Shown: positions 12,848 through 58,589, counted from the first letter of the stretch. The stretch is 64,000 nucleotides of DNA from Bdellovibrionales bacterium (GCA_041739665.1 JBGSNK010000101.1:3310-67309), one strand, 5' to 3'. Translations and numbers: made by a program. Notes: generated by a model not told the origin, from the sequence alone.

Positions 12848-13524
12848 TAGTTGTTAGTTCCTCTTTGTTTGCGAAAGCGACTGTTTTTATTTTGTGGAAC
12901 TTCTTCCTTGGGCATAGGCATAGAGAAGGCCGCTACCTCGTAATCGACATCAAAATAGTGGGGATCGCTTGAGTCTGCAAGAACGGCAATATTGATGAGT
13001 TTGCTTCCTTGAATTTGCTCAAGGGATTCTCCAAGATTCACTAATTGGCGCAAATTAAGTTTCTTCAGAATAGCCTTCACACCAGTCTGACTGATTGCCT
13101 TAGGAACGATAGATTTCTGAACCACATCCTGCTTTGCTATAACCCCTCCCTTTTGTTCGGCTAAGACATGTTCATTGTCGATAGCACTATTGATTTGAGA
13201 GGTAAGACTGTCGATAGTTGGCGCCATTGGAGGAAGTTGAATGGTACTTGCTATTCTACCAGCACGAATCAAATCTCGGGTGAGTTGGCGGTTCTCCTCA
13301 AACATTTCTATTTTCTCGTTTGCGGTGGTTAAGTAGCCAGCAGGAAAAGAGTATAAAACAAAAAGTGTCATAAGGCTTGCGGCAATTTTCACACCAATTT
13401 GAGCATTAGGAGAGAGGTTGTCGTACCTATCTTTAAGACCTATGTACAACTCGCTGTCTTCGACTTTTCCTTTTATCTCAAAGAAACGATCGATAATCTG
13501 TTCTTTTATACTTTCTATGTCCAT
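12847..13524 (-). CDS. gspM: Type II secretion system protein M-like
   Basis: YDNLSP..TM, coiled coil and C-terminal domain; position between gspL and gspN. Confidence 0.7.
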   Translation of the reverse strand: MDIESIKEQIIDRFFEIKGKVEDSELYIGLKDRYDNLSPNAQIGVKIAASLMTLFVLYSFPAGYLTTANEKIEMFEENRQLTRDLIRAGRIASTIQLPPMAPTIDSLTSQINSAIDNEHVLAEQKGGVIAKQDVVQKSIVPKAISQTGVKAILKKLNLRQLVNLGESLEQIQGSKLINIAVLADSSDPHYFDVDYEVAAFSMPMPKEEVPQNKNSRFRKQRGTNN

Positions 13525-13525
13525 A

Positions 13526-15157: not shown

Positions 15158-15226
15158 AAATGTCCTTGGCGGCGAAACTTCTGAGCTTAGTGTATGATAG
15201 GAAATGGGTACTGTCTACGAGGCAAC

Positions 15227-16546
15227 TTAGCGAACACTTTGAAAAATAATACGTGGAGGACCCTGAGGGAGAGGGGCCACCTTGGCCGGACCTTGGCCTG
15301 GTCCACCAGTCATGCTTCTTTTTTTATTTTCAATACAACTTTGGCGATCTTTTCCTTCTTCAACATTTTGACAAAGACATGTGTAGAGCTCTTCACCATT
15401 GTAATTTGCACACTCGGGGTTTGTGCGAGCCGTTTGTTCAGCAGCCAAGGAATCTTGCAGCCTTTGAGTGATCGACTCGGCATCGTATACCACGGCCTCG
15501 ATTTCCGTACTCATTTTGCCGGAGAGACCAATGCAGGAGATGCGAAAATTAAGTTCGGGACTAAAAAAAAGAGGCACTCTGTTTTCTTCCTGCTGAAAAG
15601 CTTGGGTGTCGAGAAATCCGCCCAGGAAGCTCATAAAATCATTGTTGTCACGAAAAGGTCCACCGAGCATAGGATCATTTCGACGCTTAAAAATTTCGGT
15701 GACAATTTGGTCAGCAACATTGGGAGGGTAATTGCTGAAGAGACTGAGCAAAACATCACGGTCGGCTTGGTTGACATGAATACCCTTGACTCCGTAAAGA
15801 GTGATTTGTGGAGCCAATTCCTCGTAAATTTCATCGGTCATTCCATCAATCATATGCAGTTCTTCGATGGTCTTAAAGGGGCGATTGGGTGGCAGGAATC
15901 TATTTTTAAAATCGCTGTAATAAGACTGTTCACTGCCTCCGTTGAGGCTGACTTGATCAGCATCAATCCAGTCCATTATGTTGTTTAAAAGGATCTCAAA
16001 GTTAAAATTGGCATAACGTTCAGAAAAACTATCTCCTCCGTTTAGAACCCGGGCTTGGAGTCTCTGTAACAATTGAAGGCGAGTTCTTTGTTGCAAAATT
16101 TGAGAGGGAGAAGCTAAGTCATTGATGTCAATCTTCCCACCTTCGGGACTAATCGTGGATACAAATTGTTCCTTTAAGAGAGAGCCCGCCACAGTTTTGT
16201 TAATGGTCGAGCTATCAAATCCGCTGATCTCTTGGGGTAGGTTGGGTGGCCAAGAGAGTGGAAAGTTCCAAATCATATCCAGCATTGAGGTGTCGGGCAG
16301 AACTTGTCCCAAAGAGCGCGTCGCCTGTTGAAAGGCCTTAATGCGCAAAAGACTGAGGCGCATGCAGGACTCAGCTGCGTATTTGGCTTTGACTTTTTTG
16401 ACCTCAGTGGCTGAGGTCAAATACTCCATTATGGTTTCTTGTGCCACTTCGTTGGTTAAAAAAATCACCAGTGTGGTTGTGAAAATTGCGAGCATCATGG
16501 CCGAGCCCCGTCGGTTTTTTAAATGCCGGATTGCTTTCTTCGCCAT
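15227..16546 (-). CDS. gspK: Type II secretion minor pseudopilin K
   Basis: RRG/SAMML prepilin-like site; EGGKIDIN, DWIDAD and PFKTIEELHMIDG motifs. Confidence 0.92.
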   Translation of the reverse strand: MAKKAIRHLKNRRGSAMMLAIFTTTLVIFLTNEVAQETIMEYLTSATEVKKVKAKYAAESCMRLSLLRIKAFQQATRSLGQVLPDTSMLDMIWNFPLSWPPNLPQEISGFDSSTINKTVAGSLLKEQFVSTISPEGGKIDINDLASPSQILQQRTRLQLLQRLQARVLNGGDSFSERYANFNFEILLNNIMDWIDADQVSLNGGSEQSYYSDFKNRFLPPNRPFKTIEELHMIDGMTDEIYEELAPQITLYGVKGIHVNQADRDVLLSLFSNYPPNVADQIVTEIFKRRNDPMLGGPFRDNNDFMSFLGGFLDTQAFQQEENRVPLFFSPELNFRISCIGLSGKMSTEIEAVVYDAESITQRLQDSLAAEQTARTNPECANYNGEELYTCLCQNVEEGKDRQSCIENKKRSMTGGPGQGPAKVAPLPQGPPRIIFQSVR

Positions 16547-16547
16547 G

Positions 16548-17393
16548 TTAGATTCCTTGCCCCGAGCCGGCGCTCTGCTGTTGGTTTTGCATCAAAGGCT
16601 GATTGTTAGGAAAATGGATACGGACCACGATCGTCATCGCCACTGGACGAAAATCGGGATTGTCCTTTTCGCCCATTTCTAATTCCACTTTTACAAAGTT
16701 TGGAAATTTGTCTCGATGGTCAGCGCGTCCCCTATTGTCAGAGCGCCATTGATTGACCCAAGGATCATTTTCCTTTCCGCTCAGATAACTCAATTTAAAT
16801 TTGGTGACATCTTCGGCAAGGATTGTACGCGATCCTCCTTCATCTACTTTATCATCAATTTGAGTCGAAGAGCGGCGCCACAAACACTTGGTTTGCCCTT
16901 TGCCTTTTCGCCTGCGGCAACTATCTAAAAAGTAGCCCACTTCCATTTGATTGCTTTCTTGAGCATTGTATTTTGTGCGAAAGTGATTGAGGGTTGTGAA
17001 GTGAAAATTTTGACTTTCTCCAAGAAAGTGAGTCAGTTTAATGGGTGGTGGTGGTAGTGGCGGCCCTTGTTGATTGGGATTGATTGGAGGGGTTGTTGGC
17101 GGGATATTTGACTGTTGTGAGTTTCCTCCCCCTCCGCCGGGTTGAGATTTTTGAATGGCTGCCACTTCCATTTCATAAAAAATATCTTGGTAATGAAAAG
17201 CTCGCTCGATATCGAGGCGTAAAACGCGAAGAGTGTCGTAGAGAGCGGTTTCAGAAGCCACGCGAGCTTCTAGTTTTTTTTTGTTTTGCACGGAAGTTCG
17301 CACCGTTGTAGAGACCAATATGGTTAACATCGACATGATAAACATGGAGATTAAAACCTCAATGAGAGTAAAACCCAGATTGGATTTAATCAC
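16548..17393 (-). CDS. gspJ: Type II secretion minor pseudopilin J
   Basis: GFTLIEVL type IV prepilin motif, DIERA, V.Y...LWRR; operon position. Confidence 0.88.
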   Translation of the reverse strand: MIKSNLGFTLIEVLISMFIMSMLTILVSTTVRTSVQNKKKLEARVASETALYDTLRVLRLDIERAFHYQDIFYEMEVAAIQKSQPGGGGGNSQQSNIPPTTPPINPNQQGPPLPPPPIKLTHFLGESQNFHFTTLNHFRTKYNAQESNQMEVGYFLDSCRRRKGKGQTKCLWRRSSTQIDDKVDEGGSRTILAEDVTKFKLSYLSGKENDPWVNQWRSDNRGRADHRDKFPNFVKVELEMGEKDNPDFRPVAMTIVVRIHFPNNQPLMQNQQQSAGSGQGI

Positions 17394-47450: not shown

Positions 47451-48422
47451 ATGTGGTCGGGAACTAAGCCCTCAAACATAGCCCTCATTAAATATATGGG
47501 TAAGAGTGATATTGCTTTCAATAAACCAAGCAACGGGTCACTATCTTGGACCTTGTCCCATTTATACACGCAAGTGACACTGACTTTAAGTGAGACGGCA
47601 GAGGACTCTTGGAGCCCTTTGCAAACGGACTTTCCCTTTGCAATGAGTCCAACCGGTTTGCAGAAGTACCTCGATCATTTAAAAAGAATAAAGGAACTTT
47701 TTTCTGTTCAAGAAGTTTTCCATGTGAAATCCGGTAATAATTTTCCGGCCGATTGTGGAATCGCCAGTTCGGCCTCAAGCTTTGCAGCCTTAACCGAAGC
47801 CGCCTGTAGAGCCTGCTCTGAGATCAGTGGTCAAGAAAACTTAAGTTTACTTGATCAAGCTAAGATTTCTGCTTTAGGTTCTGGCTCATCTTGCCGTTCT
47901 TTTTTACCCAATTGGGTGTCTTGGAACGGAGAGGAAGTTGAGTCTGTCACAACCGAGATTGATGAACTCTTGCATATGGTTGTGATTGTGGCCTCTGGCG
48001 CTAAAAAAGTGAGTTCCTCTCAAGCCCATAAACGGGTTGCTTCGAGCCTCTTATTTGAAGGCCGCACTTCTCGGGTTGAGCAGAGATTAAAAGATTTTTT
48101 AAATCATACGACACGACAAGATTGGGCCAAACTCTTTGAAATCTCATGGGCTGAATTTTGGGATATGCACGCCCTGTTTGAAACCTCGGCCCCCTCTTTT
48201 GGCTATTTTGAGCCCCAGACCTTGACCATTTTAAACTTGGCCCGAGATCTTTGGCTCAAAAATAACGATGGTCCACTCGTGACCATGGATGCTGGCCCAA
48301 ATGTGCATTTGCTTTGGCGAGAAGATCAACGAGCCCAAGCTTTAGATTTTTTTGAAAAAAGATTAAGTAGACAGTGGGCTTGCTTGAGCAATATGGCGGA
48401 GATAGGCTTTGCTAAACTTTAG
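47451..48422 (+). CDS. mvaD: Diphosphomevalonate decarboxylase
   Basis: SNIALIKYMGK, GIASSASSFAAL, GSGSSCRS and TMDAGPNVH motifs. Confidence 0.95.
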   Translation: MWSGTKPSNIALIKYMGKSDIAFNKPSNGSLSWTLSHLYTQVTLTLSETAEDSWSPLQTDFPFAMSPTGLQKYLDHLKRIKELFSVQEVFHVKSGNNFPADCGIASSASSFAALTEAACRACSEISGQENLSLLDQAKISALGSGSSCRSFLPNWVSWNGEEVESVTTEIDELLHMVVIVASGAKKVSSSQAHKRVASSLLFEGRTSRVEQRLKDFLNHTTRQDWAKLFEISWAEFWDMHALFETSAPSFGYFEPQTLTILNLARDLWLKNNDGPLVTMDAGPNVHLLWREDQRAQALDFFEKRLSRQWACLSNMAEIGFAKL

Positions 48423-49281
48423 AGTGCATGGCAAGTGGATATTAGCTGGTGAACATAGTGTTTTACGGGGCGGTGAGGCCCTCGTTTTTCCGGTACAAAG
48501 TCGCTTTTTAGATTTTACTTTCACACCGTCTAAACAAAAACTGTGCCTTGAAATTGTACACCCCAATAAAGATCTTGAAACGGCTTTTTGGGGAGTTTTA
48601 AAGCGTGCGCTAGAAATAGTTGATCTTCCTTTGGATCAATTGACCGGAAAATTGCACTTACAGAGTCAAATTCCAATTGGAGCAGGCATGGGTGCAAGTG
48701 CCACTTTGTGTGTGGCTTTAGCTCGTTGGTTTCATGATCTTGGATATTTGAAACTGGATAAGATGTATACCTTTGCAAAAAGTCTTGAGGATCTCTTTCA
48801 TGGGGAGAGTTCGGGTGTAGATGTGGCTGTAGCTCTCAGTCAACAACCCTTGCTGTTCAAGAGGCCCGATACTATGCAGACTTTTTTACCCCTTTGGCAA
48901 CCCCACTTTTATCTTTCTTATTGTGGCAAGAAGGGCGTGACTGCAGACTGTGTTTCTCAAGTTCAGTCCCTTTTTCTTGAAGACAAACAATATGCTGAGG
49001 CCATTGACAACAAAATGAAAGAGGCCGTCGCTCTTGCCAAAGAATCTTTACTAGGTAATCGTAAGATAGAGAGTCTGATTGAGTCTCTCGATATAGCCCA
49101 GACCTGCTTTCAGCAGTGGGGCCTGATCACGCCCGAACTTCGAAGTCATATGAATGTCCTAAAGAGTATGGGTGCTTTAGCCGTCAAGCCCACTGGTAGT
49201 GGTGGGGGTGGATTTGTTCTCAGTCTTTGGGATCGTAAGCCTCAAGACAAAACTTTAAATTTTGAGTTGATACAAGCCTAA
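48409..49281 (+). CDS. mvk: Mevalonate kinase
   Basis: GKWILAGEHSV, PIGAGMGASA, FHGESSGVD and KPTGSGGGG motifs. Confidence 0.9.
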   Translation: MLNFRVHGKWILAGEHSVLRGGEALVFPVQSRFLDFTFTPSKQKLCLEIVHPNKDLETAFWGVLKRALEIVDLPLDQLTGKLHLQSQIPIGAGMGASATLCVALARWFHDLGYLKLDKMYTFAKSLEDLFHGESSGVDVAVALSQQPLLFKRPDTMQTFLPLWQPHFYLSYCGKKGVTADCVSQVQSLFLEDKQYAEAIDNKMKEAVALAKESLLGNRKIESLIESLDIAQTCFQQWGLITPELRSHMNVLKSMGALAVKPTGSGGGGFVLSLWDRKPQDKTLNFELIQA

Positions 49282-49320: not shown

Positions 49321-49929
49321 CTATTTACGAGACCACTGGCCAGCACTAGACTGCACCCAAGTTCCTTTTGGAGATTTGCTCTGGAAAGACTGGGAAAATT
49401 TATTTGTGATCGTACTCATCTGTCCAGAGCTCATTCCATTGATACGTAAAACCTCACGATAAAGCAACTCTCTATCTGTGTTCTCTTCATTTATTAAATC
49501 TTGGATGCGTTTCTTTTGTAAAGCTTTTGGCTCCCCGCGCACGACCAGAAGTCCTTTGTTATTTTCCCCAATCAAGCCATCTGATTTGAAACGTTCCATT
49601 TGATTGAGGCGCCCCACTTCTCTTTTTTGAATTTGAGTGATCAACTCGCTACTCACTTTGAATTCATCTACGGCATAAGCGGATGTAATAAAAAGCTGCC
49701 AGGGTGAGAAACCTTTATATGCAGCTCCTTTTTTTGTCTGGCTCGAGCTAGTCGTTGGAGCAGTTTTATTTTTTTCGGCTTCTTCCTTAAGTTTATAAAG
49801 CTGTTCCACATAGCTATCAGAAGCTTGCTGAACAGCAGCTTCGGGAAAGTTTACATTGACGGTGATACAAGAAGTGAGGCTCTGCAAGAGAAAAGTAAAC
49901 AACGTCAATCGAATAGCTGAAACAATCAT
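49321..49929 (-). CDS. YdbL/DUF1318-family lipoprotein
   Basis: Lipobox LTSC then ITVNVNFP; GLIGENNKGLL, EENTDR.LY and G.WVQ...G.W motifs. Confidence 0.8.
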   Translation of the reverse strand: MIVSAIRLTLFTFLLQSLTSCITVNVNFPEAAVQQASDSYVEQLYKLKEEAEKNKTAPTTSSSQTKKGAAYKGFSPWQLFITSAYAVDEFKVSSELITQIQKREVGRLNQMERFKSDGLIGENNKGLLVVRGEPKALQKKRIQDLINEENTDRELLYREVLRINGMSSGQMSTITNKFSQSFQSKSPKGTWVQSSAGQWSRK

Positions 49930-49966
49930 AAGGGCTCCCTTAAAAGATGATTAAATCGTCTATCAA

Positions 49967-49995
49967 ATGCTAAAATGGTCAGTGTGTCTTGTCCA
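49967..49995 (-). promoter_or_regulatory. Putative internal sigma70 promoter for the YdbL-like gene
   Basis: Minus strand TGGACA-17 nt-TAGCAT. Confidence 0.4.
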
Positions 49996-49998
49996 GCT

Positions 49999-52470
49999 CT
50001 AATCTGAATTGCGATGCTCTTGGTTAGGATCAAAACATGGTATTTCTAGCGTTGTGGCAGAGGGAGAGGGTGGGGGATTGTGAGGTTCTTTACTTTCACT
50101 GCTATCCGGACTTTGAGACTCTGTGTCTGGAGTGTTCATTAAACTCAGTAAGCTGTCGCGGAAGTAATACACAAAACCGTTCCAACCACTTTTACTTAAA
50201 ATGACGGGATAGGTTTGGGTAGACAGGGGCATTTTAATTCTTGAGCCATAGAGCAGAAAATGACCTTTTTGCTCTTGCACGACTGAGGGAGGGTCGAAAG
50301 TCTCTAGAACAACAAAATTTCTTTGTGTGTGAGCGCGAAGTCCAGCATAGCTAATCCCATAGTCGCCAAAGAGTCGGCTAGATAGCCTTAAAATAAAGTT
50401 AGCCGGCCCTTGGGAAAGTCCCTGCCCTTGGGCAAAAATTTCCACTAAGTTCTGGGTGGCTTTTCTGGAGAAATAAAATTTACTCTCATTAGGACGTGGT
50501 TTTAAACGAAACTCAAAGTCATACTCTTTAAGAAGAGTGCCAGAAAAGCTCACATCATGTAAATAGCCCGAAGCATGTCCCTGCATGCCACCAAAATTTG
50601 TAAATTCTCCGATGCGAGCAAGTTCTAAATTCTTCCAACTTGCGGAAATGAAAGTTGTCGGTGTTTCGCTAAGTAATTTGTCAATTTCAAACTCAGTAAT
50701 TTTGATCTGACCATCGAAAACGTTTAAGAGACCTTCACCCTTTGTATAGACATGATTATGGGCCAAGCGAAACTCTGGGTAAGTGAGCTCAAGAGTGCCA
50801 GGAGGACTTAAATCAGGGGAGATGCATATTTTTTGGCTTAAATCTTTCAACTCTACAGGCTCTAGTTCCAGTCCCGTTTCAAAACTATACTCCATTTGGG
50901 CTCCGAATCGGAGCATGGCTTTCAACGGGGAGAGCCTGAAATTTAAATTTTGAACACGAAATGGAATCGGGCTATCAGAAATAACATACTGATTGGCTTT
51001 ATGGCTGATCGGCAAATGCCATGGTCCCAAACTGGCGACCAGATTGAGCTGGCGAATGGAGGGCATCGAGATGTCTAAAGTCTGATTTTTATTGTCGTGA
51101 ACCCTCCACTTGATTGAAATATCACGACTGAGATGCCGGAGCTCATTATGTTGCAGCTGAAAATTGTCAAAATGTAAAGTGGTTCCCGAAAGAATATCTG
51201 CTCCTCTCGAGCTGTAGCCAATACGTGCATGAGCCTTAATTTTCCCCTGGATGTCCCAGCCAGCCAGAGTGACAGGCGGCAAAAAAGGTCGGATGTCAGA
51301 AACAGCAACTTCAGATTGAAGCAGAATAAGTTTTTCAACTTCAGGTTCTAAAAGGTCTTCGCCTTGGACATCAAAATTAAGAATAGTTTTTGGGACTTCC
51401 TTGTTTTTTTGATTGGGATGGGTCTGTAAAATCTGTAAATTAAACTTCTTCAATCCTAAAAAACTCTTTTCGTTTGGTTCGTTAAACACATCAAAATGGG
51501 TCGTATATTTTTCTATTTGTGGGTCTATGTATTCTTCGTTCCAAAGAACTTCAAGTTGTTGAGCGGTCAACAGGCCAGTCATCTTATTGGGAATAAATGG
51601 ATTCAGAGTTACGCTACTATGAATTTTTGCAAGTGCAATGGTGAGATTTTGATTGGGTATCTCTATTGTTGAAGAGAATAAATCAGCTTCAAAACGGGAC
51701 TCAGAATCTTCGATCTCGCAAAACGATGATGTTTTCCCTATCACCTCGGGTCGAGCATTAAAAATAAAATCAGGACTTTTATATTGGATGCTATTTCCAC
51801 TGAAATGGTAAGATAGATGGCAATCGTTATATTCTAGATGAACTTTAAAATCATCAACACTGATATGATTTGTTGGGTGATCCAGGCTCAATCTGTCTCC
51901 GAGTATCTTTGCTTGGGCAACAATTTTATTGTTCCTAAATTCGGATTCTCCATTGAGGACAAAGTTTTTTGATCGAAGTGGGAGTAGTGGAAGATGACTA
52001 AAGTTTATCTGAAAATTTATTTTTTTAATTTCATGGGATTTGTCTTTGATCGTGATTTGAACAGTTCCATCGGCAAACTTATGAATTTCACTTTGCCTAG
52101 CTCCAAATAATATTTCTGGTTTTGCTTGGATATGAAAGTCTTTATGTCTTTTGAAAAGGAGATTAAGTAAAGACTTACGCTCAAATCCAATAGGACCTTG
52201 AAGTCGAAAATGTCCAAAAGGTGTAGAGAGAGTGCTTTTAAGATGTAGGCCTTCACCACCAAGAATACCCTTAAGACTCCATTGAAGATCAAAACTCTGC
52301 AATTGGTAATTTTCTGGCAAATAAGTTGAGGCATAGTCTTTGAGAAGAGAGTTGCCGTACCCATGCAGCGTGTCTTTTTCCCATAAAACAAGAGCAAGCA
52401 AACTGAGTGAGATAAAGGTTACCAAAAGAAATGTATAAATGAAAAAAAATGTAAGCTTTTTAAGATTCAT
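49999..52470 (-). CDS. YdbH/AsmA-like intermembrane bridge protein
   Basis: N-terminal TM, long beta-rich body, VFDGQI..FGGMQG..SG..KFYFSRKA..NL C-terminal pattern; adjacent to the YdbL-like gene. Confidence 0.6.
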   Translation of the reverse strand: MNLKKLTFFFIYTFLLVTFISLSLLALVLWEKDTLHGYGNSLLKDYASTYLPENYQLQSFDLQWSLKGILGGEGLHLKSTLSTPFGHFRLQGPIGFERKSLLNLLFKRHKDFHIQAKPEILFGARQSEIHKFADGTVQITIKDKSHEIKKINFQINFSHLPLLPLRSKNFVLNGESEFRNNKIVAQAKILGDRLSLDHPTNHISVDDFKVHLEYNDCHLSYHFSGNSIQYKSPDFIFNARPEVIGKTSSFCEIEDSESRFEADLFSSTIEIPNQNLTIALAKIHSSVTLNPFIPNKMTGLLTAQQLEVLWNEEYIDPQIEKYTTHFDVFNEPNEKSFLGLKKFNLQILQTHPNQKNKEVPKTILNFDVQGEDLLEPEVEKLILLQSEVAVSDIRPFLPPVTLAGWDIQGKIKAHARIGYSSRGADILSGTTLHFDNFQLQHNELRHLSRDISIKWRVHDNKNQTLDISMPSIRQLNLVASLGPWHLPISHKANQYVISDSPIPFRVQNLNFRLSPLKAMLRFGAQMEYSFETGLELEPVELKDLSQKICISPDLSPPGTLELTYPEFRLAHNHVYTKGEGLLNVFDGQIKITEFEIDKLLSETPTTFISASWKNLELARIGEFTNFGGMQGHASGYLHDVSFSGTLLKEYDFEFRLKPRPNESKFYFSRKATQNLVEIFAQGQGLSQGPANFILRLSSRLFGDYGISYAGLRAHTQRNFVVLETFDPPSVVQEQKGHFLLYGSRIKMPLSTQTYPVILSKSGWNGFVYYFRDSLLSLMNTPDTESQSPDSSESKEPHNPPPSPSATTLEIPCFDPNQEHRNSD

Positions 52471-52533: not shown

Positions 52534-53736
52534 CTATTTATAATGAAAGCACCAAAGAGAAATATCATCCTGCAGTGGGGCACCTTCACAAAATTTAAAA
52601 AAATCTTCAAGAAGGAGATCGCGACTTTTTTGTATGGATTGTGTTTTTGCAAAGTGTTTGAGGAAACTATTGAGGATGCGCCGCAATCCATAGGCTTTTC
52701 CCTCGAGGTTGATATGTTCGTAAAGGCCATCACTGAAGCTCATGTAAAGGCTACCGGGTATCAGATCCCGTTCGGTGAACAGAAATTTGGGTTCATCAAT
52801 AATTCCGAGAGGATGAGAGCGCCCAAGGTCTATGGCCTTAAAGGATATCCACGATTGATCCTCAAGATTGTTGAGGTCAGATAGAATATAAACCGAAGAA
52901 TGGCTAGCCTGCCCAAGTCTATACTTATTTTTTTTAAGATCAAATTCAAGCAACTGAAAAGTTGACCAGTAGTGATTTTGTGCCACACTTTTGACGCATA
53001 GGTGAAGCTCTTCGATAGCCTTCTCAATACTTAAGGATTTTAGAACTTCTTGTCTTGAGACGGTGGACTTGATAGCACCGGTTATCATGGCTGGTCCTAC
53101 TCCGTGACCGGTGACATCACCTGACCAAATGCGCACATTGTCGTCATGCACTTTGTAATGAAGAAAATCACCCCCGCACTCAGCAGCTGATTTATAGTAG
53201 CAAGCCAAATCAAAGCCTGAGCTGCTGAAGTCGCTTTTTGGCATCATCAAACTTTGAATCTGTTGCGCGGATTCTATTTCTTTACTCATTCTTTCTTTTT
53301 CAAGAAGGGCCTTGCGCAGCTCCCCTAAATCTTGGCCGACAAGAGTAAAATAAGTCGTCTCCCCGCGGGTGATATCAAAATGTTTCCAGCTGGACAAGCT
53401 AACGGCATAAGGAGTTGATGGCTGGCCGAATTGGAGTTCGACTTCAAAGACTTTTCCGCTTTGAGTTTTTGAAAGTGAAATAATTTTTTTTAATTCAGTT
53501 ATGGAATCTTGGCTTATGGAGTCGTAAAGGTTAGGAGCGCTATCATGTCCGGCTTGTCCAACTGCTATTTTGAAATTATCATTGGCACGAAGAATACTTC
53601 CATTTTCCATCAATATAAGAAATATTCCAGGAAACAAGTCAATTGCCGATTCACTACGATTCTTAGATTTTTCGAGAAGCAAAAGAATCTCTTCAGTGGC
53701 CTTGAAGTTCTGCTGAATGTTCGAAGTTTTGCTCAT
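52534..53736 (-). CDS. PAS-like + SpoIIE/PP2C serine phosphatase (RsbU-like)
   Basis: EIESAQQIQ, GGDF, GDVTGHGV, FSDGLYE and DDIS metal-binding motifs; N-terminal PAS-like segment. Confidence 0.9.
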   Translation of the reverse strand: MSKTSNIQQNFKATEEILLLLEKSKNRSESAIDLFPGIFLILMENGSILRANDNFKIAVGQAGHDSAPNLYDSISQDSITELKKIISLSKTQSGKVFEVELQFGQPSTPYAVSLSSWKHFDITRGETTYFTLVGQDLGELRKALLEKERMSKEIESAQQIQSLMMPKSDFSSSGFDLACYYKSAAECGGDFLHYKVHDDNVRIWSGDVTGHGVGPAMITGAIKSTVSRQEVLKSLSIEKAIEELHLCVKSVAQNHYWSTFQLLEFDLKKNKYRLGQASHSSVYILSDLNNLEDQSWISFKAIDLGRSHPLGIIDEPKFLFTERDLIPGSLYMSFSDGLYEHINLEGKAYGLRRILNSFLKHFAKTQSIQKSRDLLLEDFFKFCEGAPLQDDISLWCFHYK

Positions 53737-54101
53737 AGAGAAAAGACCTTTTTAATTGCTTGCGCTAGGATTTCTTTTTTGTAAGGCTTGGTAATCCAGG
53801 CTCGAACGCCAAGAGCCTTCCCTTTTGTTTTCAATTCAATACTAGCATCAGTGGTGAGCATGAACACAAGACTTTTCTCTAATAGGTTCTTAGTTTTTGT
53901 TTGCTCTAAGACCTCAATTCCAGAAGCTCCGGGCATATTGACGTCTAAAATTATTAAGTTGTAAGTCTTACCGCTCGAAATTTTTTCAATAGCCTCGAGT
54001 CCATCACGTGCTTCATCAACTTGATAACCTTCCTCTTTAAGATCTGAAAGGAGAGTGCTGCGAAATGTTTCGGAATCATCGGCAATTAGAATTTTAATCA
54101 T
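53733..54101 (-). CDS. Single-domain CheY-like response regulator
   Basis: ILIADD, LIILDVNMP, MLTT and WITKP motifs. Confidence 0.93.
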   Translation of the reverse strand: MIKILIADDSETFRSTLLSDLKEEGYQVDEARDGLEAIEKISSGKTYNLIILDVNMPGASGIEVLEQTKTKNLLEKSLVFMLTTDASIELKTKGKALGVRAWITKPYKKEILAQAIKKVFSL

Positions 54102-54115
54102 TTGGCTTACTCCTG

Positions 54116-54679
54116 TTAAAAGAATTCAATTGAATTGTCATTGTCGTCATTGTCGTCACTTATTTCTAGTGCTTCCAGGTTAGCCCTGGATTCAATGGAG
54201 CTAGTGAAAATAAGATGGGATGTTTCCACTTCAAATCTCCACGACTGGGTAAACTGCTTGGGGTTGTTGGACTTGCTTGAGAACAAGTCATCGTATCCAC
54301 GCATACTTATTGGCAAACTTATGTCCGAGTAGATATTAGATTTATTAAGTACGCTCTTGATATGCCCTGCAGAGAGATTGGCAACCTCTTTGAACATATC
54401 AACGATCAGGTGTTCTTTTTCGCCGTCAGAAATTACATTTTTATAGATACGCTCGACGAGGGGAGCGGTCGTCTCCCAGTTAAAGAAAAACTTTAGGCTT
54501 TGATAAAAATTTGGACTGACAACTAAGATCATCACAAGATTTTTATAGCTGGGTTGAAAGTTTTTTTCCACAAAGTCCAGGACTAGAACATCCTGCGAAG
54601 AACAGTAGGTTTGTAGACGGCTGGCGGCTGTTCTTTGGCTTGTTTTGTGGAGATCTAGGACAAATTTTTCCGTTGTCAT
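54116..54679 (-). CDS. CheX-like phosphatase
   Basis: DMFKEVANLSAGHIK (ExxN..G) and DISLP motifs. Confidence 0.7.
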   Translation of the reverse strand: MTTEKFVLDLHKTSQRTAASRLQTYCSSQDVLVLDFVEKNFQPSYKNLVMILVVSPNFYQSLKFFFNWETTAPLVERIYKNVISDGEKEHLIVDMFKEVANLSAGHIKSVLNKSNIYSDISLPISMRGYDDLFSSKSNNPKQFTQSWRFEVETSHLIFTSSIESRANLEALEISDDNDDNDNSIEFF

Positions 54680-54790
54680 GGGCCTTAAGTTTGTATCGAG
54701 TTATAGATAAATTGATCTTAGCAGAAAATATGGCAAAATATAGAGACCACAGGACCAGTTTAAATGATTTAGAGAAGGGCAGCTATCTTA

Positions 54791-56728
54791 GTGATTACCA
54801 CTTCATCGGACATAAAGTCGACCTTTCTCAAAATATTTTATATTGGCACAGATGGCGATACGAGTGTTACCAGTCGTAGGATTACTATTTTTACCAATGT
54901 GATAGCATTTCTAGCTATCTTAATGGGTCTTTCCGTCTATACTAAGCTCGACCAATTTGGCGTTCCCTCTCAATTTGCTAGAATGTACTACATCCTGGCC
55001 GTCTTTGCCCTTACGGGCCTGTTTTTTACCTATTTGAAAAGGCTCATGTTGGGTCGTATATTTTTTCTTCTTTTAATGGCGGGTACAGGTCTTATCGCCG
55101 TTATGATTTTTGGCAAAAGTTTTAATGGCGACTTTGTCTTCTTCTTAGGAATCTTCTTTAGTGTTCTTGCCTTCTCAAGATACAAAACCTGGATACGTGT
55201 TCTGGCCGGGCTATTTGCTCTAATTTGGTTGCCGTTGACCGATATTTTGTCTCACCAAGGGATTTTTCCGGTTACAGATTTGCATTCTAAAAACTTTCCT
55301 GTCACCGTTTTAGTTACTGACTCCATCCTTTTCCCAGTTGTTATTCTTGTAATGCTCTGGATCGAAAAAACTATGGCGGACCGTCACGAAGCTGGTCTAG
55401 AGAAAGCATTAAGCCAGGTTGAGTATGAAAAGCAAAAGATAAAGCTGATTTTAGATAATATTGAGTTGGGTATTTTTATGACAGATGCACAACTTAAATT
55501 TGGAGATGAGCAATCACAATATTTGGGCAAGATTGTAGAAAAAGATGATCTTGCGGGAGAGGACATCATTGATATTATCTTTGCTAGTAGCGACTTGAGT
55601 GCTGAGGAGATAAGCACTCTTAAGGATACACTGTTTCTTTCAATTGGTGAGGACTCACTTAACTGGGAATTGAATTCTGGGCATTTGGTATCTGAAATGA
55701 AATTGCATATTCATGGACAGACCAAGTTCATCTCTCTAACTTGGAGTCCTGTTTTGGTAGGGGATCTGATTCAACAGGTTATTGTCACCCTTAAAGACAC
55801 CACTGCAGAGCGTGAGGCTTTGGCTCGTCTACGAGAAAGTGAAACCATCGTTAACTATGGTCGACAAGTTTTTGCTGCTGTTATTGAACACGGCACTCAA
55901 CCGGTCAAAGATTTTCTTAAACAGTTGTCACTGATCATTAATGAACAGTCGTTTCTTTTAGGCGACAATCCGAGAGATAAGAAAGTATTGCTCCGCAACA
56001 TTCACACCTTAAAAGGAGAAGCACGTTTGTTAGGTTTTGCAGATATCTCGAACCAACTTCATCTTCTCGAAGGTCGACTGACAGACCCTTCCTTTCAAGG
56101 GGATTGGTGGGATAATTGTGGTGAAGATATCCGCGTGGTTGTTTCGCAAATCAATTCGGCGAGCAATCGCATCTTTAGTGGTGTGAGTGGAAAAAGACGG
56201 AAATGGACCATTTTAAATCATTTGGCGAAAGTGAAAGAAGGACTCATTACATACTTGAACAGTACAAAATCTATTCTCGGAAGTTTTAGAATCGATGATC
56301 GCGTCCAAGATTGGCCGCAAGAGTACGTTAAAGTTGTTCAGGCGGTGACCCTTCACGGCGTCCAGAACGCTGTGGATCACGGATACGTTCTTCCCAAGCT
56401 TGATCGGGAAGTTGTTGTGCAGGTCAGTACCTTCATCGACAATGGTTACCTTATTATGATCGAAGACGAAGGCATAGGCATTGATGTTGAACTCATTCGA
56501 AAGAAGTTAGCCCAGTCTAGCGATCAGAATAAGAACATTTCAATCGAAGTTGCTTTATTTTCTGATTCCTTTACAACGGCGAAAGAGGTGTCTTTGACCA
56601 GTGGTCGCGGTGTGGGCCTAGCTGAAGTTAAAGGTCTGGTCGAGGGTTATGGTGGCAGTGTCTCACTGTCAAATAAAGAGACGGGTTCAGGGGCCCGACT
56701 TAAGGTCTGGTTACCCTCCGTATCATAG
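54791..56728 (+). CDS. Membrane-bound CheA-like (Hpt + HATPase) histidine kinase lacking a CheW domain
   Basis: About 6 TM segments, PAS-like ILDNIELGIF, Hpt IHTLKGEAR, N box QNAVDHG, G1 DEGIG, F/G2 box FTTAKEVSLTSGRGVGL. Confidence 0.88.
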   Translation: MITTSSDIKSTFLKIFYIGTDGDTSVTSRRITIFTNVIAFLAILMGLSVYTKLDQFGVPSQFARMYYILAVFALTGLFFTYLKRLMLGRIFFLLLMAGTGLIAVMIFGKSFNGDFVFFLGIFFSVLAFSRYKTWIRVLAGLFALIWLPLTDILSHQGIFPVTDLHSKNFPVTVLVTDSILFPVVILVMLWIEKTMADRHEAGLEKALSQVEYEKQKIKLILDNIELGIFMTDAQLKFGDEQSQYLGKIVEKDDLAGEDIIDIIFASSDLSAEEISTLKDTLFLSIGEDSLNWELNSGHLVSEMKLHIHGQTKFISLTWSPVLVGDLIQQVIVTLKDTTAEREALARLRESETIVNYGRQVFAAVIEHGTQPVKDFLKQLSLIINEQSFLLGDNPRDKKVLLRNIHTLKGEARLLGFADISNQLHLLEGRLTDPSFQGDWWDNCGEDIRVVVSQINSASNRIFSGVSGKRRKWTILNHLAKVKEGLITYLNSTKSILGSFRIDDRVQDWPQEYVKVVQAVTLHGVQNAVDHGYVLPKLDREVVVQVSTFIDNGYLIMIEDEGIGIDVELIRKKLAQSSDQNKNISIEVALFSDSFTTAKEVSLTSGRGVGLAEVKGLVEGYGGSVSLSNKETGSGARLKVWLPSVS

Positions 56729-56853
56729 CGAGAGAACGTAGCGCTTCGCAGAGCAATAGACAGGGAATTGTCATCTAAGTATTACACTTTTCAATAAAAC
56801 CTCTTACAATGAATGTTGAATTTTAAGTTTTTAGGTATTCCAACGGTGGTTAC

Positions 56854-57360
56854 ATGATTGATGTTTTTAGGTTTAAAACAGAAAGTCCCGGACAAGGCAT
56901 TTACATCTTCAGCTTTTCTGGGAACTTGGATGAACTTGCAAAACTTCCAAAATTGGAAGATCTTGTAAACGTTAAAAAAATCACCTTTGATTTCATGGGT
57001 CTCAAGTTTCTTAGTTCTGCCGGCATAAAAAGTTGGGTGATGATGATCGACAAGATTAAAGAAATTCCTGATATTGAGATTGAGTTTTCAAATTGCCCCA
57101 AGACAGTGATTGATTGTGTAAATTCTATTGAAGGTTTTTTGCCCGAAAAAGGTTTTGTCTCTTCGTTTAAGATTCCTTATTTTTGTGGGGAATGTGATCA
57201 AAGTTTTACTGTTCTTGAGCCCACAAATGCTGTGATTCCCCATTTGGATAAGTTTCTTAATAAGCAAATGACTTTCCCAGAACAAAACTGTCCGACCTGT
57301 AATAGCCGCACCGAGATCGAGTTGCCAGTGCCCCGTTTCCTTAAGTTTTTAAAGAAGTGA
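56854..57360 (+). CDS. STAS-like anti-anti-sigma protein with a C-terminal zinc ribbon
   Basis: FSGNLDE, DFMGLKFLSSAGI STAS motif; CGEC...CPTC. Confidence 0.7.
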   Translation: MIDVFRFKTESPGQGIYIFSFSGNLDELAKLPKLEDLVNVKKITFDFMGLKFLSSAGIKSWVMMIDKIKEIPDIEIEFSNCPKTVIDCVNSIEGFLPEKGFVSSFKIPYFCGECDQSFTVLEPTNAVIPHLDKFLNKQMTFPEQNCPTCNSRTEIELPVPRFLKFLKK

Positions 57361-57515
57361 TCTAAAATAGGCCTTCGCTACTTTTAAGATTGTGACAGGG
57401 TGAAGAAAATTATGTTGAAAATCAGTTCGGATCTGATCAAATCATTCACCAGCGATTTGAGTACCAACATTAATCCTGATTAGCTTTCATTTTAGAGTAG
57501 TGCTATATTTTAAAA

Positions 57516-58589
57516 ATGATAAAAACCGATACGACTTTGAAAACAAAAAATTTATATAGAGATTTAAAAACTCAAGTTTATAGCCGTTTGGGTGAGCGAG
57601 GCATACCCACCCGCCAGTCACGACGCATGCTTTTACAGGCCACCTTTTTATTTACTCTTTGGATTGTTAGCTATTTTGCTTTTCTTTATTGGGGGCAACA
57701 AAGTGAAGTTTATGCTTTGCTTCTCTCCCTTCCATGGGCTTTCGTGATGTTGGTCATTCAGCTAGCCGTCATGCACGATGGGAGTCATGGGGCCTCTAGT
57801 GAGTCTGCCTTGATGAATAAGGTTTTGACCGCGGCAATTTCTTTTATCGGTGGTAGCGCTTTATTATGGGAAAGCCAACACTGCCATGCCCATCATAGTT
57901 TTACAAACGTTCATAAAAAAGATCACGACATAGATACGGGTGGACTTTTGCGACTCCACTCTAGCCAAGAGCTTAGAGAGCACCATCGTTACCAACATAT
58001 TTATGCTTGGTTGCTCTACCCTTTGTTTGTCTTAAGTTGGATTTGGTGGGGCGACCTACGCGATATCATAAAAAACACATACTCTATCAGTCGCCAACGA
58101 ATGAAGCGGGTTATAGTTGAGTTTGTCATAGTTAAAATTTGGCATGTCCTTCTTTTTTTGGTGGTACCCACCCTTGTCTTTCAAAGTTTCGCACTAACCC
58201 TGGCCTGTTACTTGATAAGTTTTGGCTTGCTTGGTTTTTTTATGGTGGTAATTTTTCAGTTAGCTCATATGACAGGGGTTCAAAGTTTACCTGAGAACGA
58301 AAAGTCTTTAGGCGACGAATTTACTTTGCGACAAGTTTCAACTACCGTCAACTTTGCCACAGAAAATCGTTTTCTAACTTGGGTATTGGGCGGCTTAAAC
58401 TTCCAGATCGAGCACCACCTTTTTCCACAAATGAGCCATGTGAACTATCCGGTTATCCAACCGGTGGTCATTAAGTTTTGTATGGAGAAGGGGATACCAT
58501 ATTTTAATTATTCTAGTGTGATGGGGGCTGTCTTGGGACACCAAAATCATCTCAAAGAAATGGGGCGTCCCATTTTTAATGATAAATAA
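57516..58589 (+). CDS. Membrane fatty-acid (acyl-CoA) desaturase
   Basis: His boxes HDGSH, HCHAHH and QIEHHLFP; GGLNFQ. Confidence 0.93.
   Translation: MIKTDTTLKTKNLYRDLKTQVYSRLGERGIPTRQSRRMLLQATFLFTLWIVSYFAFLYWGQQSEVYALLLSLPWAFVMLVIQLAVMHDGSHGASSESALMNKVLTAAISFIGGSALLWESQHCHAHHSFTNVHKKDHDIDTGGLLRLHSSQELREHHRYQHIYAWLLYPLFVLSWIWWGDLRDIIKNTYSISRQRMKRVIVEFVIVKIWHVLLFLVVPTLVFQSFALTLACYLISFGLLGFFMVVIFQLAHMTGVQSLPENEKSLGDEFTLRQVSTTVNFATENRFLTWVLGGLNFQIEHHLFPQMSHVNYPVIQPVVIKFCMEKGIPYFNYSSVMGAVLGHQNHLKEMGRPIFNDK

What the first reader, a model, noticed from the sequence alone, without database searches (positions are those of the whole stretch)
52534..58589. Hybrid chemosensory-like / partner-switching cassette next to a fatty-acid desaturase
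Seen: a divergent arrangement PP2C<-CheY<-CheX | kinase->STAS-Zn->desaturase. The kinase has CheA-type Hpt (HTLKG) and CheA-type ATPase boxes but carries its own TM and PAS-like input and has no CheW domain. No MCP, CheW, CheR or CheB gene is present, and the receiver has no output domain. Established: CheA-CheY-CheX is the chemotaxis phosphorelay, PP2C plus STAS are RsbU/RsbV partner-switch parts, and B. subtilis DesK/DesR couples a membrane sensor to a desaturase. Inference: a receptor-independent class II kinase feeds CheY-P into a PP2C/STAS switch, possibly sensing membrane state. The desaturase link rests only on adjacency. A weak sigma28-like motif (TAAG-N16-CTCGATAC, minus strand, 54693-54720) precedes cheX.
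Basis: partly seen in the sequence, partly recalled or inferred. Interest (0 to 1): 0.7.

Follow-up and report, generated by a model that had tools for sequence, protein, structure and literature searches.

The report
Array-free CheA-like kinase and PP2C/STAS cassette
A predatory-bacterium relative that has lost its chemotaxis receptors carries a compact, mobile set of signalling genes that joins a chemotaxis-type kinase, receiver and reset phosphatase to a serine-phosphatase switch; the neighbouring fatty-acid desaturase is only a chance neighbour.

Summary
The gene arrangement is real. PP2C (52534-53736), receiver (53733-54101) and CheX (54116-54679) form a tight minus-strand operon. It faces a plus-strand membrane kinase (54791-56728), followed by a STAS-plus-zinc-ribbon gene (56854-57360).

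Profile and fold searches confirm CheX, with its catalytic D-x3-E-x2-N...P motif, and a STAS fold with a serine at the SpoIIAA phospho-site. The kinase has a CheA-type P1 and P4 and ends at P4, so it has no CheW-like domain.

The genome is flagellated but no MCP or CheW was found. Kinase, CheX and the full-length PP2C occur in the same 7 of 13 genomes of the genus. They were not found in the 13 genomes of sister genera. Cassette-type STAS-Zn sits beside the kinase in 4 of those 7.

The desaturase is next to the kinase in 0 of 11 related loci. The sigma28-like motif is not conserved and is no more frequent than chance. The PAS-like call could not be confirmed.

Most likely flow: kinase → receiver (reset by CheX) → PP2C → STAS-Zn partner switch. 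Only the parts are shown; the wiring is inferred.

STAS-Zn belongs to a large uncharacterised family paired with a divergent GHKL kinase. Verdict: a new variant of a known kind, of moderate interest.

The parts
52534..53736 (-). PP2C (SpoIIE-type) serine phosphatase, 400 aa. Catalytic domain about 198-398; N-terminal about 145 aa of no known family, followed by a helical linker.
   Evidence: Pfam SpoIIE 4.5e-23. D190, D207, D336, D390 and D391 are invariant in 7 orthologues. Full-length orthologues occur only in the 7 genomes that hold the kinase.
53733..54101 (-). Stand-alone receiver (CheY-like), 122 aa. Its stop overlaps the PP2C start by 4 nt.
   Evidence: Pfam Response_reg 5e-22. D8, D9, D53, T83/T84 and K105 are invariant. 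It scores 59 bits on the NCBIfam CheY equivalog against a cut-off of 189.
54116..54679 (-). CheX-type receiver-phosphate phosphatase, 187 aa
   Evidence: Profile against PDB CheC/CheX 5.8e-6. Model pLDDT 82. Foldseek 3hzh_B 6.6e-10 with TM 0.78 on the target. D94, E98, N101 and P123 are invariant in 14 sequences.
54680..54790 (.). 111-bp divergent intergenic region between cheX and the kinase. It holds the claimed sigma28-like string at 54693-54720 on the minus strand.
   Evidence: Sequence read. The motif is not conserved (1 of 7 orthologous regions) and not enriched.
54791..56728 (+). Membrane-integral class II histidine kinase, 645 aa, GTG start. N-terminal multi-pass TM sensor (about 30-195), middle region of unknown fold (about 196-370), Hpt/P1 with H405, CheA-type ATPase P4 (about 470-643). 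No P2 and no P5.
   Evidence: Pfam HATPase_c 3.3e-13 and Hpt 8.1e-5. PDB CheA P4 1.1e-31 and P1 5.2e-8. Hydropathy. Conserved boxes.
56854..57360 (+). STAS-Zn protein, 168 aa. STAS fold (about 1-95) with S55 at the SpoIIAA phospho-serine position, plus a C-terminal beta/zinc-ribbon extension (C111, C114, C146, C149).
   Evidence: Model pLDDT 92. Foldseek SpoIIAA 1tid_D 3.1e-4 and 4hyl 2.7e-3. HMM alignment to SpoIIAA 1h4y places S55 on the first S of DSSG. Invariant residues.

Best explanation
This is a self-contained signalling cassette found in some members of one genus. Record titles of the related loci place that genus in Pseudobdellovibrionaceae.

Proposed flow:
1. A membrane-embedded sensor domain controls a CheA-derived (class II) kinase. 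The kinase works without a chemoreceptor array and autophosphorylates on H405 of its Hpt domain.
2. The phosphate passes to D53 of the stand-alone receiver.
3. The dedicated CheX phosphatase quickly resets the receiver.
4. The phosphorylated receiver switches the co-translated PP2C on or off through the PP2C's N-terminal regulatory region.
5. The PP2C removes phosphate from S55 of a STAS-Zn protein. That protein then captures a divergent GHKL serine kinase encoded elsewhere in the genome, as in RsbU/RsbV/RsbW-type partner switching.

Shown: the identity and catalytic intactness of each part, their co-inheritance, and the general PP2C / GHKL / STAS-Zn association in this bacterial family.
Inferred: every phosphotransfer and binding step, the sensed signal and the final output.
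The desaturase is not part of the system.
For: Parts:
- CheA-type P1 and P4, with the protein ending at P4.
- CheX fold with the invariant D-x3-E-x2-N...P motif.
- Receiver with a complete phospho-acceptor pocket.
- PP2C with invariant metal-binding Asp residues.
- STAS fold with S55 aligned to the SpoIIAA phospho-serine.

Co-inheritance:
- Full-length kinase, CheX-like and full-length PP2C are found in the same 7 of 13 genus genomes (G000, G002, G003, G006, G007, G009, G011). They were found in 0 of 13 genomes of the other genera of the family.
- The divergent cheX-REC-PP2C | kinase layout holds in 6 of 7. In G006 the operon lies 10 kb from the kinase on the same contig.
- Receiver stop and PP2C start overlap by 4 nt in 6 of 7.
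- In G007 and G011 the four genes sit between a canonical STAS gene and a CHASE2 cyclase. Those two genes are direct divergent neighbours in the window's own genome. This suggests the four genes were inserted as a unit.

STAS-Zn link:
- The four best STAS-Zn matches in 26 genomes (E<=7e-71) are exactly the four genes beside the cassette kinase, in two orientations.
- 24 of 49 PP2C places in the family have a STAS-Zn gene within 5 kb.
- 38 of 62 divergent GHKL genes have a STAS-Zn gene within 1 kb.
- GHKL-STAS-Zn fusion proteins exist (hhalign 99.9%).
- A complete HAMP-PP2C / GHKL / STAS-Zn operon lies on contig C20 of this genome.

Precedent: the che1 locus of Shewanella oneidensis carries CrsR/CrsA partner-switch genes (PMC9855816, passages read).
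Against: - No binding or phosphotransfer step is shown.
- The locus has no serine kinase for the STAS-Zn protein. No Pfam HATPase_c_2 match over the cut-off exists in the genome.
- 3 of the 7 cassette genomes (G006, G007, G011) lack a cassette-type STAS-Zn, so STAS-Zn cannot be an obligatory component.
- The adjacency of a canonical STAS to the PP2C in G007/G011 may merely reflect the insertion site.
- The PP2C N-terminal region matches no known receiver-binding domain.
- CheX phosphatases are otherwise typical of pathways that steer the flagellar motor.
- FliM keeps its CheY-docking peptide.
Confidence: 0.5

Rival explanations
1. Array-free taxis. The membrane kinase senses a membrane or energy-related cue directly. 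It sets the level of receiver-P, which docks on FliM and changes flagellar rotation, and CheX gives the fast reset as in spirochaetes. The PP2C and STAS-Zn would be a side branch or unrelated.
For: The genome has 6 flagellin genes and a FliM that starts MNQVLSQSEVDALL. I recall this as the CheY-P docking motif; it was not tested against a reference. No CheW or MCP was found. 11 of 12 other genomes of the genus show no CheW match, and the twelfth has only fragments with stop codons. A kinase-CheY-CheX trio is the core of motor control in Borrelia, whose CheX-CheY complex 3hzh is the best structural match.
Against: The FliM peptide is identical in all 11 genus genomes that gave a FliM match. That includes 4 (G004, G005, G008, G010) without the cassette, so its retention does not depend on this receiver. 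This receiver is not the most CheY-like in the genome: 59 bits against 84 bits for one on contig C65. It is translationally coupled to the PP2C, not to motor genes.
Confidence: 0.2
2. Kinase, receiver and CheX form a small two-component module in which the receiver is only a phosphate sink or a single-domain effector for an unknown target. The PP2C acts on other phosphoproteins, such as substrates of Ser/Thr kinases. The STAS-Zn gene is a frequent but functionally separate neighbour.
For: 3 of the 7 cassette genomes lack the cassette-type STAS-Zn. The locus has no serine kinase. The genome has a Pkinase-PP2C_2 pair elsewhere, so other phosphoprotein substrates exist. The middle and N-terminal regions have no recognisable docking domains.
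Against: The PP2C is strictly co-inherited with kinase and CheX and overlaps the receiver gene. SpoIIE-type PP2Cs in this family are strongly associated with STAS-Zn genes (24 of 49). Cassette-type STAS-Zn genes are found only beside the cassette kinase.
Confidence: 0.15
3. DesK/DesR-like membrane-fluidity circuit. The membrane kinase senses lipid order and the cassette controls expression of the adjacent fatty-acid desaturase.
For: The kinase's sensor is almost wholly membrane-embedded. In this one genome a desaturase lies 155 bp downstream of STAS-Zn on the same strand. A possible YdbH-like gene with a DUF1318 gene lies on the other flank; the YdbH likeness is recalled, not tested.
Against: The desaturase was found in 0 of 11 related kinase loci. 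The receiver has no DNA-binding output. The kinase is of the Hpt/CheA class, not the HisKA_3 class of DesK (class recalled). The same TM domain is fused to ordinary HisKA kinases in other genera.
Confidence: 0.03

Closest known systems
Shewanella oneidensis Che1 cluster with CrsR/CrsA (and the related Pseudomonas HptB-HsbR-HsbA pathway)
   Same: A CheA/Hpt-type phosphorelay is genetically joined to a receiver-controlled PP2C and a STAS antagonist (PMC9855816, passages read; PMC6482189, search listing and abstract only).
   Different: Che1 has MCPs, CheW, CheR, CheB and a full CheA. CrsR fuses receiver, PP2C and anti-sigma kinase in one protein. Here the kinase has its own TM sensor and no P5. 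Receiver and PP2C are separate proteins, a CheX is present, the STAS carries a zinc-ribbon extension, and no serine kinase is in the locus.
Spirochaete CheA-CheY-CheX motor control (Borrelia burgdorferi CheX-CheY complex, PDB 3hzh)
   Same: Class II kinase, single-domain receiver and a CheX with the same catalytic motif and fold.
   Different: No MCP or CheW array, and no CheW-like domain in the kinase. The receiver gene is coupled to a PP2C. The receiver does not reach the CheY equivalog score.
Bacillus RsbU/RsbV/RsbW and SpoIIE/SpoIIAA/SpoIIAB partner switches; B. cereus RsbK-RsbY
   Same: SpoIIE-family PP2C plus a STAS protein with serine at the phospho-site. In B. cereus a two-component kinase drives a receiver-PP2C (PMC4574943, abstract in the search listing only).
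   Different: No RsbW or sigma factor gene in the locus. The STAS falls below the Pfam STAS cut-off and has an extra C-terminal Cys-rich domain. The likely partner kinases are a divergent 245-290-aa GHKL family that Pfam does not recognise above its cut-off.
Canonical CheA (P1-P2-P3-P4-P5)
   Same: P1 with HTLKG, and a P4 with N, G1 and G2 boxes that aligns to T. maritima CheA at 1.1e-31.
   Different: No P2 and no P5. H-kinase_dim is not detected. There is an N-terminal TM sensor. 27 of 27 non-acidobacterial relatives examined share this P5-less build with varied sensors: 7TMR-DISM, 4HB_MCP, HAMP, PAS, CHASE8, FIST.
Bacillus subtilis DesK/DesR-des
   Same: A multi-pass membrane sensor kinase lies next to a desaturase gene in this one genome.
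   Different: Different kinase class, no DNA-binding regulator, and adjacency not conserved (0 of 11). DesK/DesR features are recalled, not tested.

Membership tests
CheA (chemotaxis class II histidine kinase) | P1 Hpt domain with phospho-accepting His | tested here: met
   H405 in HTLKG is invariant in 5 sequences. Pfam Hpt 8.1e-5, just under the cut-off (23.2 against 24.6 bits). Profile against CheA P1 structures 1tqg/2ld6 about 5e-8.
CheA (chemotaxis class II histidine kinase) | CheA-type ATPase (P4) | tested here: met
   Profile against T. maritima CheA P4 1.1e-31. The best NCBIfam hits are CheA models.
CheA (chemotaxis class II histidine kinase) | P3 dimerisation domain (H-kinase_dim) | tested here: inconclusive
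   No Pfam H-kinase_dim hit. The alignment to E. coli CheA 6s1k reaches back into chain residues 288-330.
CheA (chemotaxis class II histidine kinase) | P5 CheW-like domain and coupling to MCP/CheW arrays | tested here: not met
   The protein ends at the end of P4. No CheW domain. No CheW or MCPsignal match in the 96%-complete genome.
CheX (CheC/CheX/FliY phosphatases) | CheX fold | tested here: met
   Foldseek 3hzh_B 6.6e-10, 3iic 2.3e-9, 6vpw 2.5e-9, 1squ 9.8e-8. The Pfam CheX score is below the cut-off for this sequence (15.6 against 27), but 5 of the 17 proteins found by the CheX-like profile (the query among them) carry PF13690.
CheX (CheC/CheX/FliY phosphatases) | Catalytic D/S-x3-E-x2-N-x(21-22)-P motif (motif recalled) | tested here: met
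   D94, E98, N101 and P123 are invariant in 14 sequences. They align without gaps to the same residues of 3iic and 6vpw.
CheY (motor-binding chemotaxis regulator) | Receiver with acidic pocket, phospho-Asp, Thr, Lys | tested here: met
   D8, D9, D53, T83/T84 and K105 are invariant.
CheY (motor-binding chemotaxis regulator) | Equivalog-level similarity to CheY / binding to FliM | tested here: not met
   59.2 bits against a cut-off of 189. Another receiver in the genome scores higher, 84 bits. FliM binding is not testable here.
RsbU/SpoIIE-type partner-switch phosphatase | SpoIIE/PPM catalytic domain with metal-binding Asp residues | tested here: met
   Pfam SpoIIE 82.6 bits against a cut-off of 25. 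Invariant D190, D207, D336, D390 and D391; their role as metal ligands is recalled.
RsbU/SpoIIE-type partner-switch phosphatase | Cognate STAS substrate and GHKL serine kinase encoded together | tested here: inconclusive
   STAS-Zn lies within about 3 kb in 4 of 7 cassette genomes. There is no GHKL serine kinase in the locus. Complete triads exist elsewhere in the genome (C20).
STAS anti-sigma-factor antagonist (SpoIIAA/RsbV) | STAS fold | tested here: met
   Model pLDDT 92. Foldseek SpoIIAA 1tid/1thn 3-4e-4, 4hyl 2.7e-3, RsbV 6m36 3.6e-2. The Pfam STAS score is below the cut-off (11.8 against 22.6).
STAS anti-sigma-factor antagonist (SpoIIAA/RsbV) | Phosphorylatable Ser in the D-S-x-G turn | tested here: met
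   Invariant S55 and G57 align with the S and G of FMDSSG in SpoIIAA 1h4y. That the first S is the phospho-site is recalled.
STAS anti-sigma-factor antagonist (SpoIIAA/RsbV) | Binds and is phosphorylated by an RsbW/SpoIIAB-type kinase that also holds a sigma factor | not testable with these tools
   Indirect evidence only: 38 of 62 divergent GHKL genes lie within 1 kb of a STAS-Zn gene, and fusions exist. No sigma factor link was examined.
DesK/DesR desaturase control | Conserved linkage of kinase, DNA-binding regulator and desaturase | tested here: not met
   Desaturase in 0 of 11 related loci. The receiver has no output domain.

The most novel reading that the evidence does not exclude
In a genus that kept flagella and an intact CheY-docking peptide on FliM but where no chemoreceptor array was found, this cassette could be an array-free taxis pathway. 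A membrane-integral, CheW-less class II kinase would read a membrane or energy cue directly and set receiver-P, with CheX as the fast reset. Receiver-P would both bias the motor and, through the coupled PP2C, flip a STAS-Zn partner switch. One input would then drive a fast behavioural output and a slow regulatory one.
Probability: 0.12. Interest if true: 0.8.

Novelty: new variant of a known kind. Interest (0 to 1): 0.5.

Why it matters
Chemosensory kinases are usually thought of as parts of receptor arrays. This case shows a CheA-derived kinase that has dropped the array-coupling domain and taken its own membrane sensor. It still keeps a CheY-like receiver and a CheX reset, and is inherited together with a PP2C.

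Two broader groups came to light:
- Sensor-Hpt-ATPase kinases without a CheW domain. All 27 non-acidobacterial relatives examined have this build.
- A STAS-plus-zinc-ribbon family of at least 1750 sequence clusters. In this bacterial family it is paired with a divergent GHKL kinase that Pfam does not recognise.

I found no description of either group in four full-text searches. Together they offer a compact system for asking how two-component and partner-switch signalling are joined.

The result also removes a tempting but unsupported link to membrane-lipid control.

Tried and rejected
- Complex prediction of PP2C (alignment A8) with the receiver (A7): no verdict (score 0.00, mark 0.32). This counts neither for nor against binding. 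The job was accepted only, after nine queue-full answers.
- Sequencing runs: no RNA holder listed, so operon structure and expression could not be examined.
The count was done in a script instead.
- Tree of 12 kinases plus a distant outgroup. It is mostly unresolved: 6 of 10 inner branches are open. Only window+G002+G006 (93/92) and two close pairs are supported. It therefore cannot say whether cassette and solo kinases are separate clades.
- CheX-based locus search of genome contigs returned only 5 loci, all genomes already in hand.
- Flanks of the six 'solo' paralogous kinases show no shared neighbour: efflux pump/Fic, ExbD, pilin/OmpA, GST and others.
- The receiver on contig C40 near the flagellin genes is paired with an ordinary HisKA kinase and is not CheY-like.
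- Downstream of the PP2C there is no conserved gene across the 7 loci.
- The ESM Atlas gave leads only: Hpt+HATPase_c clusters with varied sensors, and HATPase_c_2-bearing neighbours for the GHKL-like protein.
- Literature: no paper found on P5-less sensor class II kinases or on STAS with a zinc ribbon. These searches cover only the held open-access library.

Full report
**1. What is in the sequence**

| Gene | Coordinates | Strand |
|---|---|---|
| PP2C | 52534-53736 | - |
| Receiver | 53733-54101 | - |
| 187-aa ORF (CheX) | 54116-54679 | - |
| Kinase, 645 aa | 54791-56728 | + |
| 168-aa ORF (STAS-Zn) | 56854-57360 | + |
| Desaturase | 57516-58589 | + |

Pfam alone recognised SpoIIE, Response_reg, HATPase_c (with a sub-threshold Hpt) and FA_desaturase. 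It recognised nothing for the 187-aa and 168-aa ORFs.

Both unassigned ORFs were settled with family profiles and predicted folds.
- **187-aa ORF = CheX.**
  - A 14-sequence profile hits solved CheC/CheX chains: 3iic 5.8e-6, 6vpw 9.3e-5, 1squ 6e-3.
  - The AlphaFold model (pLDDT 82) has Borrelia CheX from the CheX-CheY-BeF3 complex as its best match (3hzh_B, 6.6e-10).
  - D94, E98, N101 and P123 are invariant. They align without gaps to the catalytic motif of the solved proteins.
- **168-aa ORF = STAS plus a Cys-rich extension.**
  - The model has pLDDT 92. Its best matches are SpoIIAA chains from SpoIIAA-SpoIIAB complexes (1tid, 1thn, 3-4e-4) and a Haliangium antagonist (4hyl).
  - Invariant S55 and G57 align with the S and G of FMDSSG in SpoIIAA 1h4y.
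  - The C-terminal 60 residues carry invariant C111, C114 and C149, and a fourth Cys whose position shifts between subgroups.

**2. The kinase**

- A profile of five family members matches T. maritima CheA P4 at 1.1e-31 and CheA P1 at about 5e-8. The alignment to P4 runs to the last residues of the protein.
- There is no CheW-like P5, no P2, and no detectable H-kinase_dim.
- H405 sits in HTLKG. The N, G1 and G2 boxes are invariant.
- Residues 31-196 give five hydrophobic peaks above threshold.
- The same N-terminal domain (residues about 7-211) is fused to ordinary HisKA-HATPase(-REC) kinases in two other genera of the family. It is therefore a portable membrane sensor module.
- The 'PAS-like' middle region could not be confirmed.
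- This build is not rare. I scanned 29 of the 80 related loci, choosing the 27 whose match reached beyond the ATPase domain plus two acidobacterial controls.
  - All 27 have HATPase_c, 26 have Hpt, and none has CheW or H-kinase_dim.
  - Their sensors are 7TMR-DISM, 4HB_MCP, HAMP, PAS, CHASE8 or FIST.
  - Both controls are full CheA proteins.
- The ESM Atlas points the same way, as a lead only.

**3. Genomic setting**

- The assembly is 2.64 Mb and 96% complete. It has 6 flagellin genes and a FliM starting MNQVLSQSEVDALL.
- It gave no CheW match and no MCPsignal match.
- CheR and CheB domains occur only fused inside one 1304-aa ORF on another contig.
- Across the family, CheW is found in 11 of 26 genomes. 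Within the window's genus it is found in only 1 of 12 relatives, and there only as fragments with stop codons. So no intact CheW was found in any of the 13 genus genomes. No MCPsignal match was found in the window's genome; MCPs were not searched for in the relatives.
- Record titles of related loci read Pseudobdellovibrionaceae or Bdellovibrionales.

**4. Is it a unit?**

- Full-length kinase matches occur in G000, G002, G003, G006, G007, G009 and G011. That is 7 of 13 genomes of the genus, and none of the other 48 genomes searched in the order.
- CheX-like matches at E<=1e-46 occur in the same seven.
- PP2C matches that include the N-terminal region (E<=4e-77) occur in the same seven.
- The divergent layout cheX-REC-PP2C | kinase holds in six. 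In G006 the operon is 10 kb from the kinase on one contig.
- Receiver stop and PP2C start overlap by 4 nt in 6 of 7 loci.
- In G007 and G011 the four genes lie between a canonical STAS gene and a CHASE2 adenylate cyclase.
  - In the window's own genome those two genes are direct divergent neighbours on contig C80, and the STAS is 76% identical.
  - This is what insertion of the four genes as a block would leave.
- Each of five genomes also has a second, 'solo' paralogue of the kinase with unrelated neighbours; one of them, G002, also has a third.
- Proteins of the cassette are only 27-60% identical between members of the genus, whereas FliM is 91-95% identical.

**5. STAS-Zn and the partner switch**

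- Cassette-type STAS-Zn sits beside the kinase in 4 of the 7 genomes. It is on the same strand in G000 and G002 and convergent in G003 and G009.
- These four genes are the four best matches in 26 genomes. The profile was built from this subgroup, so the ranking is partly by construction.
- G006, G007 and G011 have no match of that grade.
- STAS-Zn is a multi-copy family: 82 places in 23 of 26 genomes, and 5 in this genome.
- An all-against-library HMM search finds 1750 clusters at E<=1e-10, mostly 155-175 aa and matched end to end.
- In the family, 24 of 49 SpoIIE-type PP2C places have a STAS-Zn gene within 5 kb.
- The usual gap of about 800 nt is filled by a 245-290-aa gene.
  - It has an ELFxN / DxxG / GxGxG pattern.
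  - It has weak HATPase_c (0.068) and HATPase_c_2 (0.032) hits.
- 38 of 62 such GHKL-like genes have a STAS-Zn gene within 1 kb.
- Fusion proteins of the two exist: P0134 and P0108, hhalign 99.9% on the N-terminal part and STAS-Zn at the C-terminus.
- Contig C20 of this genome has a complete HAMP-PP2C / GHKL-like / STAS-Zn operon.
- This genome has five STAS-Zn and five GHKL-like genes.
  - Three pairs are adjacent.
  - The orphans are the STAS-Zn genes of the window and of C33, and the GHKL-like genes of C50 and C102. The C102 gene is fused to a cNMP-binding domain.
- No canonical RsbW-type match passes the Pfam cut-off.

So STAS-Zn proteins are very probably the antagonists of a divergent partner-switch system. 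The cassette supplies a phosphatase and often an antagonist, but not the kinase.

**6. What is not supported**

- **Desaturase.** It was not found near any of the 11 related kinase loci. The receiver has no DNA-binding domain.
- **Sigma28-like string.** TAAG-N16-CTCGATAC exists, but its 3' end is 13 nt from the start codon. It is found in 1 of 7 orthologous upstream regions. A relaxed form occurs 5 times in the window against 6.2 +/- 2.3 in shuffles.

**7. Mechanism**

Best reading (0.5): membrane sensor → class II kinase (H405) → receiver (D53), reset by CheX → PP2C → phospho-S55 of STAS-Zn → capture of a GHKL-like partner encoded elsewhere → unknown output.
- Shown: intact catalytic residues, co-inheritance, gene coupling, and the family-wide PP2C / GHKL / STAS-Zn association.
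- Inferred: every transfer and contact, the stimulus and the target.

Motor rival (0.2). It rests on the flagella, on the array parts that were not found, and on the retained FliM peptide.
- That peptide is identical in all 24 family genomes that gave a FliM match, 4 of which lack the cassette.
- This receiver is not the most CheY-like in the genome.

**8. Comparison and novelty**

- The nearest described systems are chemosensory clusters that carry partner-switch genes (Shewanella Che1 with CrsR/CrsA; PMC9855816, passages read) and Hpt- or kinase-driven receiver-PP2C proteins (HsbR, RsbY; abstracts in search listings only).
- This cassette differs in four ways. The kinase is array-free with its own TM sensor. 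Receiver and PP2C are separate proteins. A CheX is present. The STAS has a zinc-ribbon extension.
- It fails the defining P5/array test for CheA and the equivalog test for CheY. I therefore file it as working like these systems, not as a member.
- It is a new variant of a known kind. Interest is moderate, raised by the two large uncharacterised groups it exposes and lowered by the absence of any functional evidence.

Noticed in passing
G000 contig C20 (locus L126: 4871-7922, minus strand): Complete three-gene operon: HAMP-SpoIIE PP2C (604 aa), a 245-aa divergent GHKL-like protein (ELFxN, DxxG and GxGxG boxes; Pfam below cut-off) and a STAS-Zn paralogue. The same triad, with a gap of about 800 nt between PP2C and STAS-Zn, recurs across the family.
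   Followed up: partly
Proteins P0134 (448 aa) and P0108 (455 aa): Natural fusions of the divergent GHKL-like domain (hhalign 99.9%) with a C-terminal STAS-Zn domain. The STAS-Zn family has 1750 clusters at E<=1e-10 and no Pfam model that covers it.
   Followed up: partly
window 49321-52470, minus strand: Directly downstream of the PP2C (64-nt gap) lie an 823-aa membrane-anchored protein with no Pfam hit and then a DUF1318 gene. The pair recalls the E. coli ydbH-ydbL arrangement of AsmA-like lipid-transport genes (recalled, not tested). It is not conserved next to the cassette in other genomes.
   Followed up: no
G000 contig C80 (locus L127: 1968-5354); L103 and L104: A canonical STAS gene and a CHASE2-adenylate cyclase are divergent neighbours. 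In G007 and G011 the four-gene cassette sits between their orthologues. A STAS-cyclase functional pair is possible.
   Followed up: partly
G000 contig C80: 44207-46153, plus strand (locus L110: 6977-8923): A second, 'solo' paralogue of the kinase (33% identity, same TM-Hpt-ATPase build) lies next to an RND efflux pump and a Fic gene. Four other genomes of the genus also have a solo copy.
   Followed up: partly
G000 contig C93: about 12856-16605, minus strand: CheB methylesterase, CheR methyltransferase and a receiver domain lie in one 1304-aa reading frame, in a genome where no MCP was found.
   Followed up: no
G005 contig C42: 45527-46295: The only CheW matches in the genus are two fragments interrupted by stop codons. 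They look like remnants of a recently lost chemotaxis cluster. Sister genera keep CheW and CheA.
   Followed up: no
Loci L099-L102 (genera g3 and g4): The kinase's N-terminal multi-pass membrane domain is reused on classical HisKA-HATPase(-REC) kinases. The same sensor thus appears on two different transmitter classes.
   Followed up: partly
window 47451-49281, plus strand: Diphosphomevalonate decarboxylase and a GHMP kinase are present, so the organism carries mevalonate-pathway genes.
   Followed up: no
Cassette orthologues (alignments A1, A2, A7, A8) versus FliM: Cassette proteins are only 27-60% identical between species of one genus, while FliM is 91-95% identical. This means either unusually fast divergence or exchange of the cassette between lineages.
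   Followed up: no
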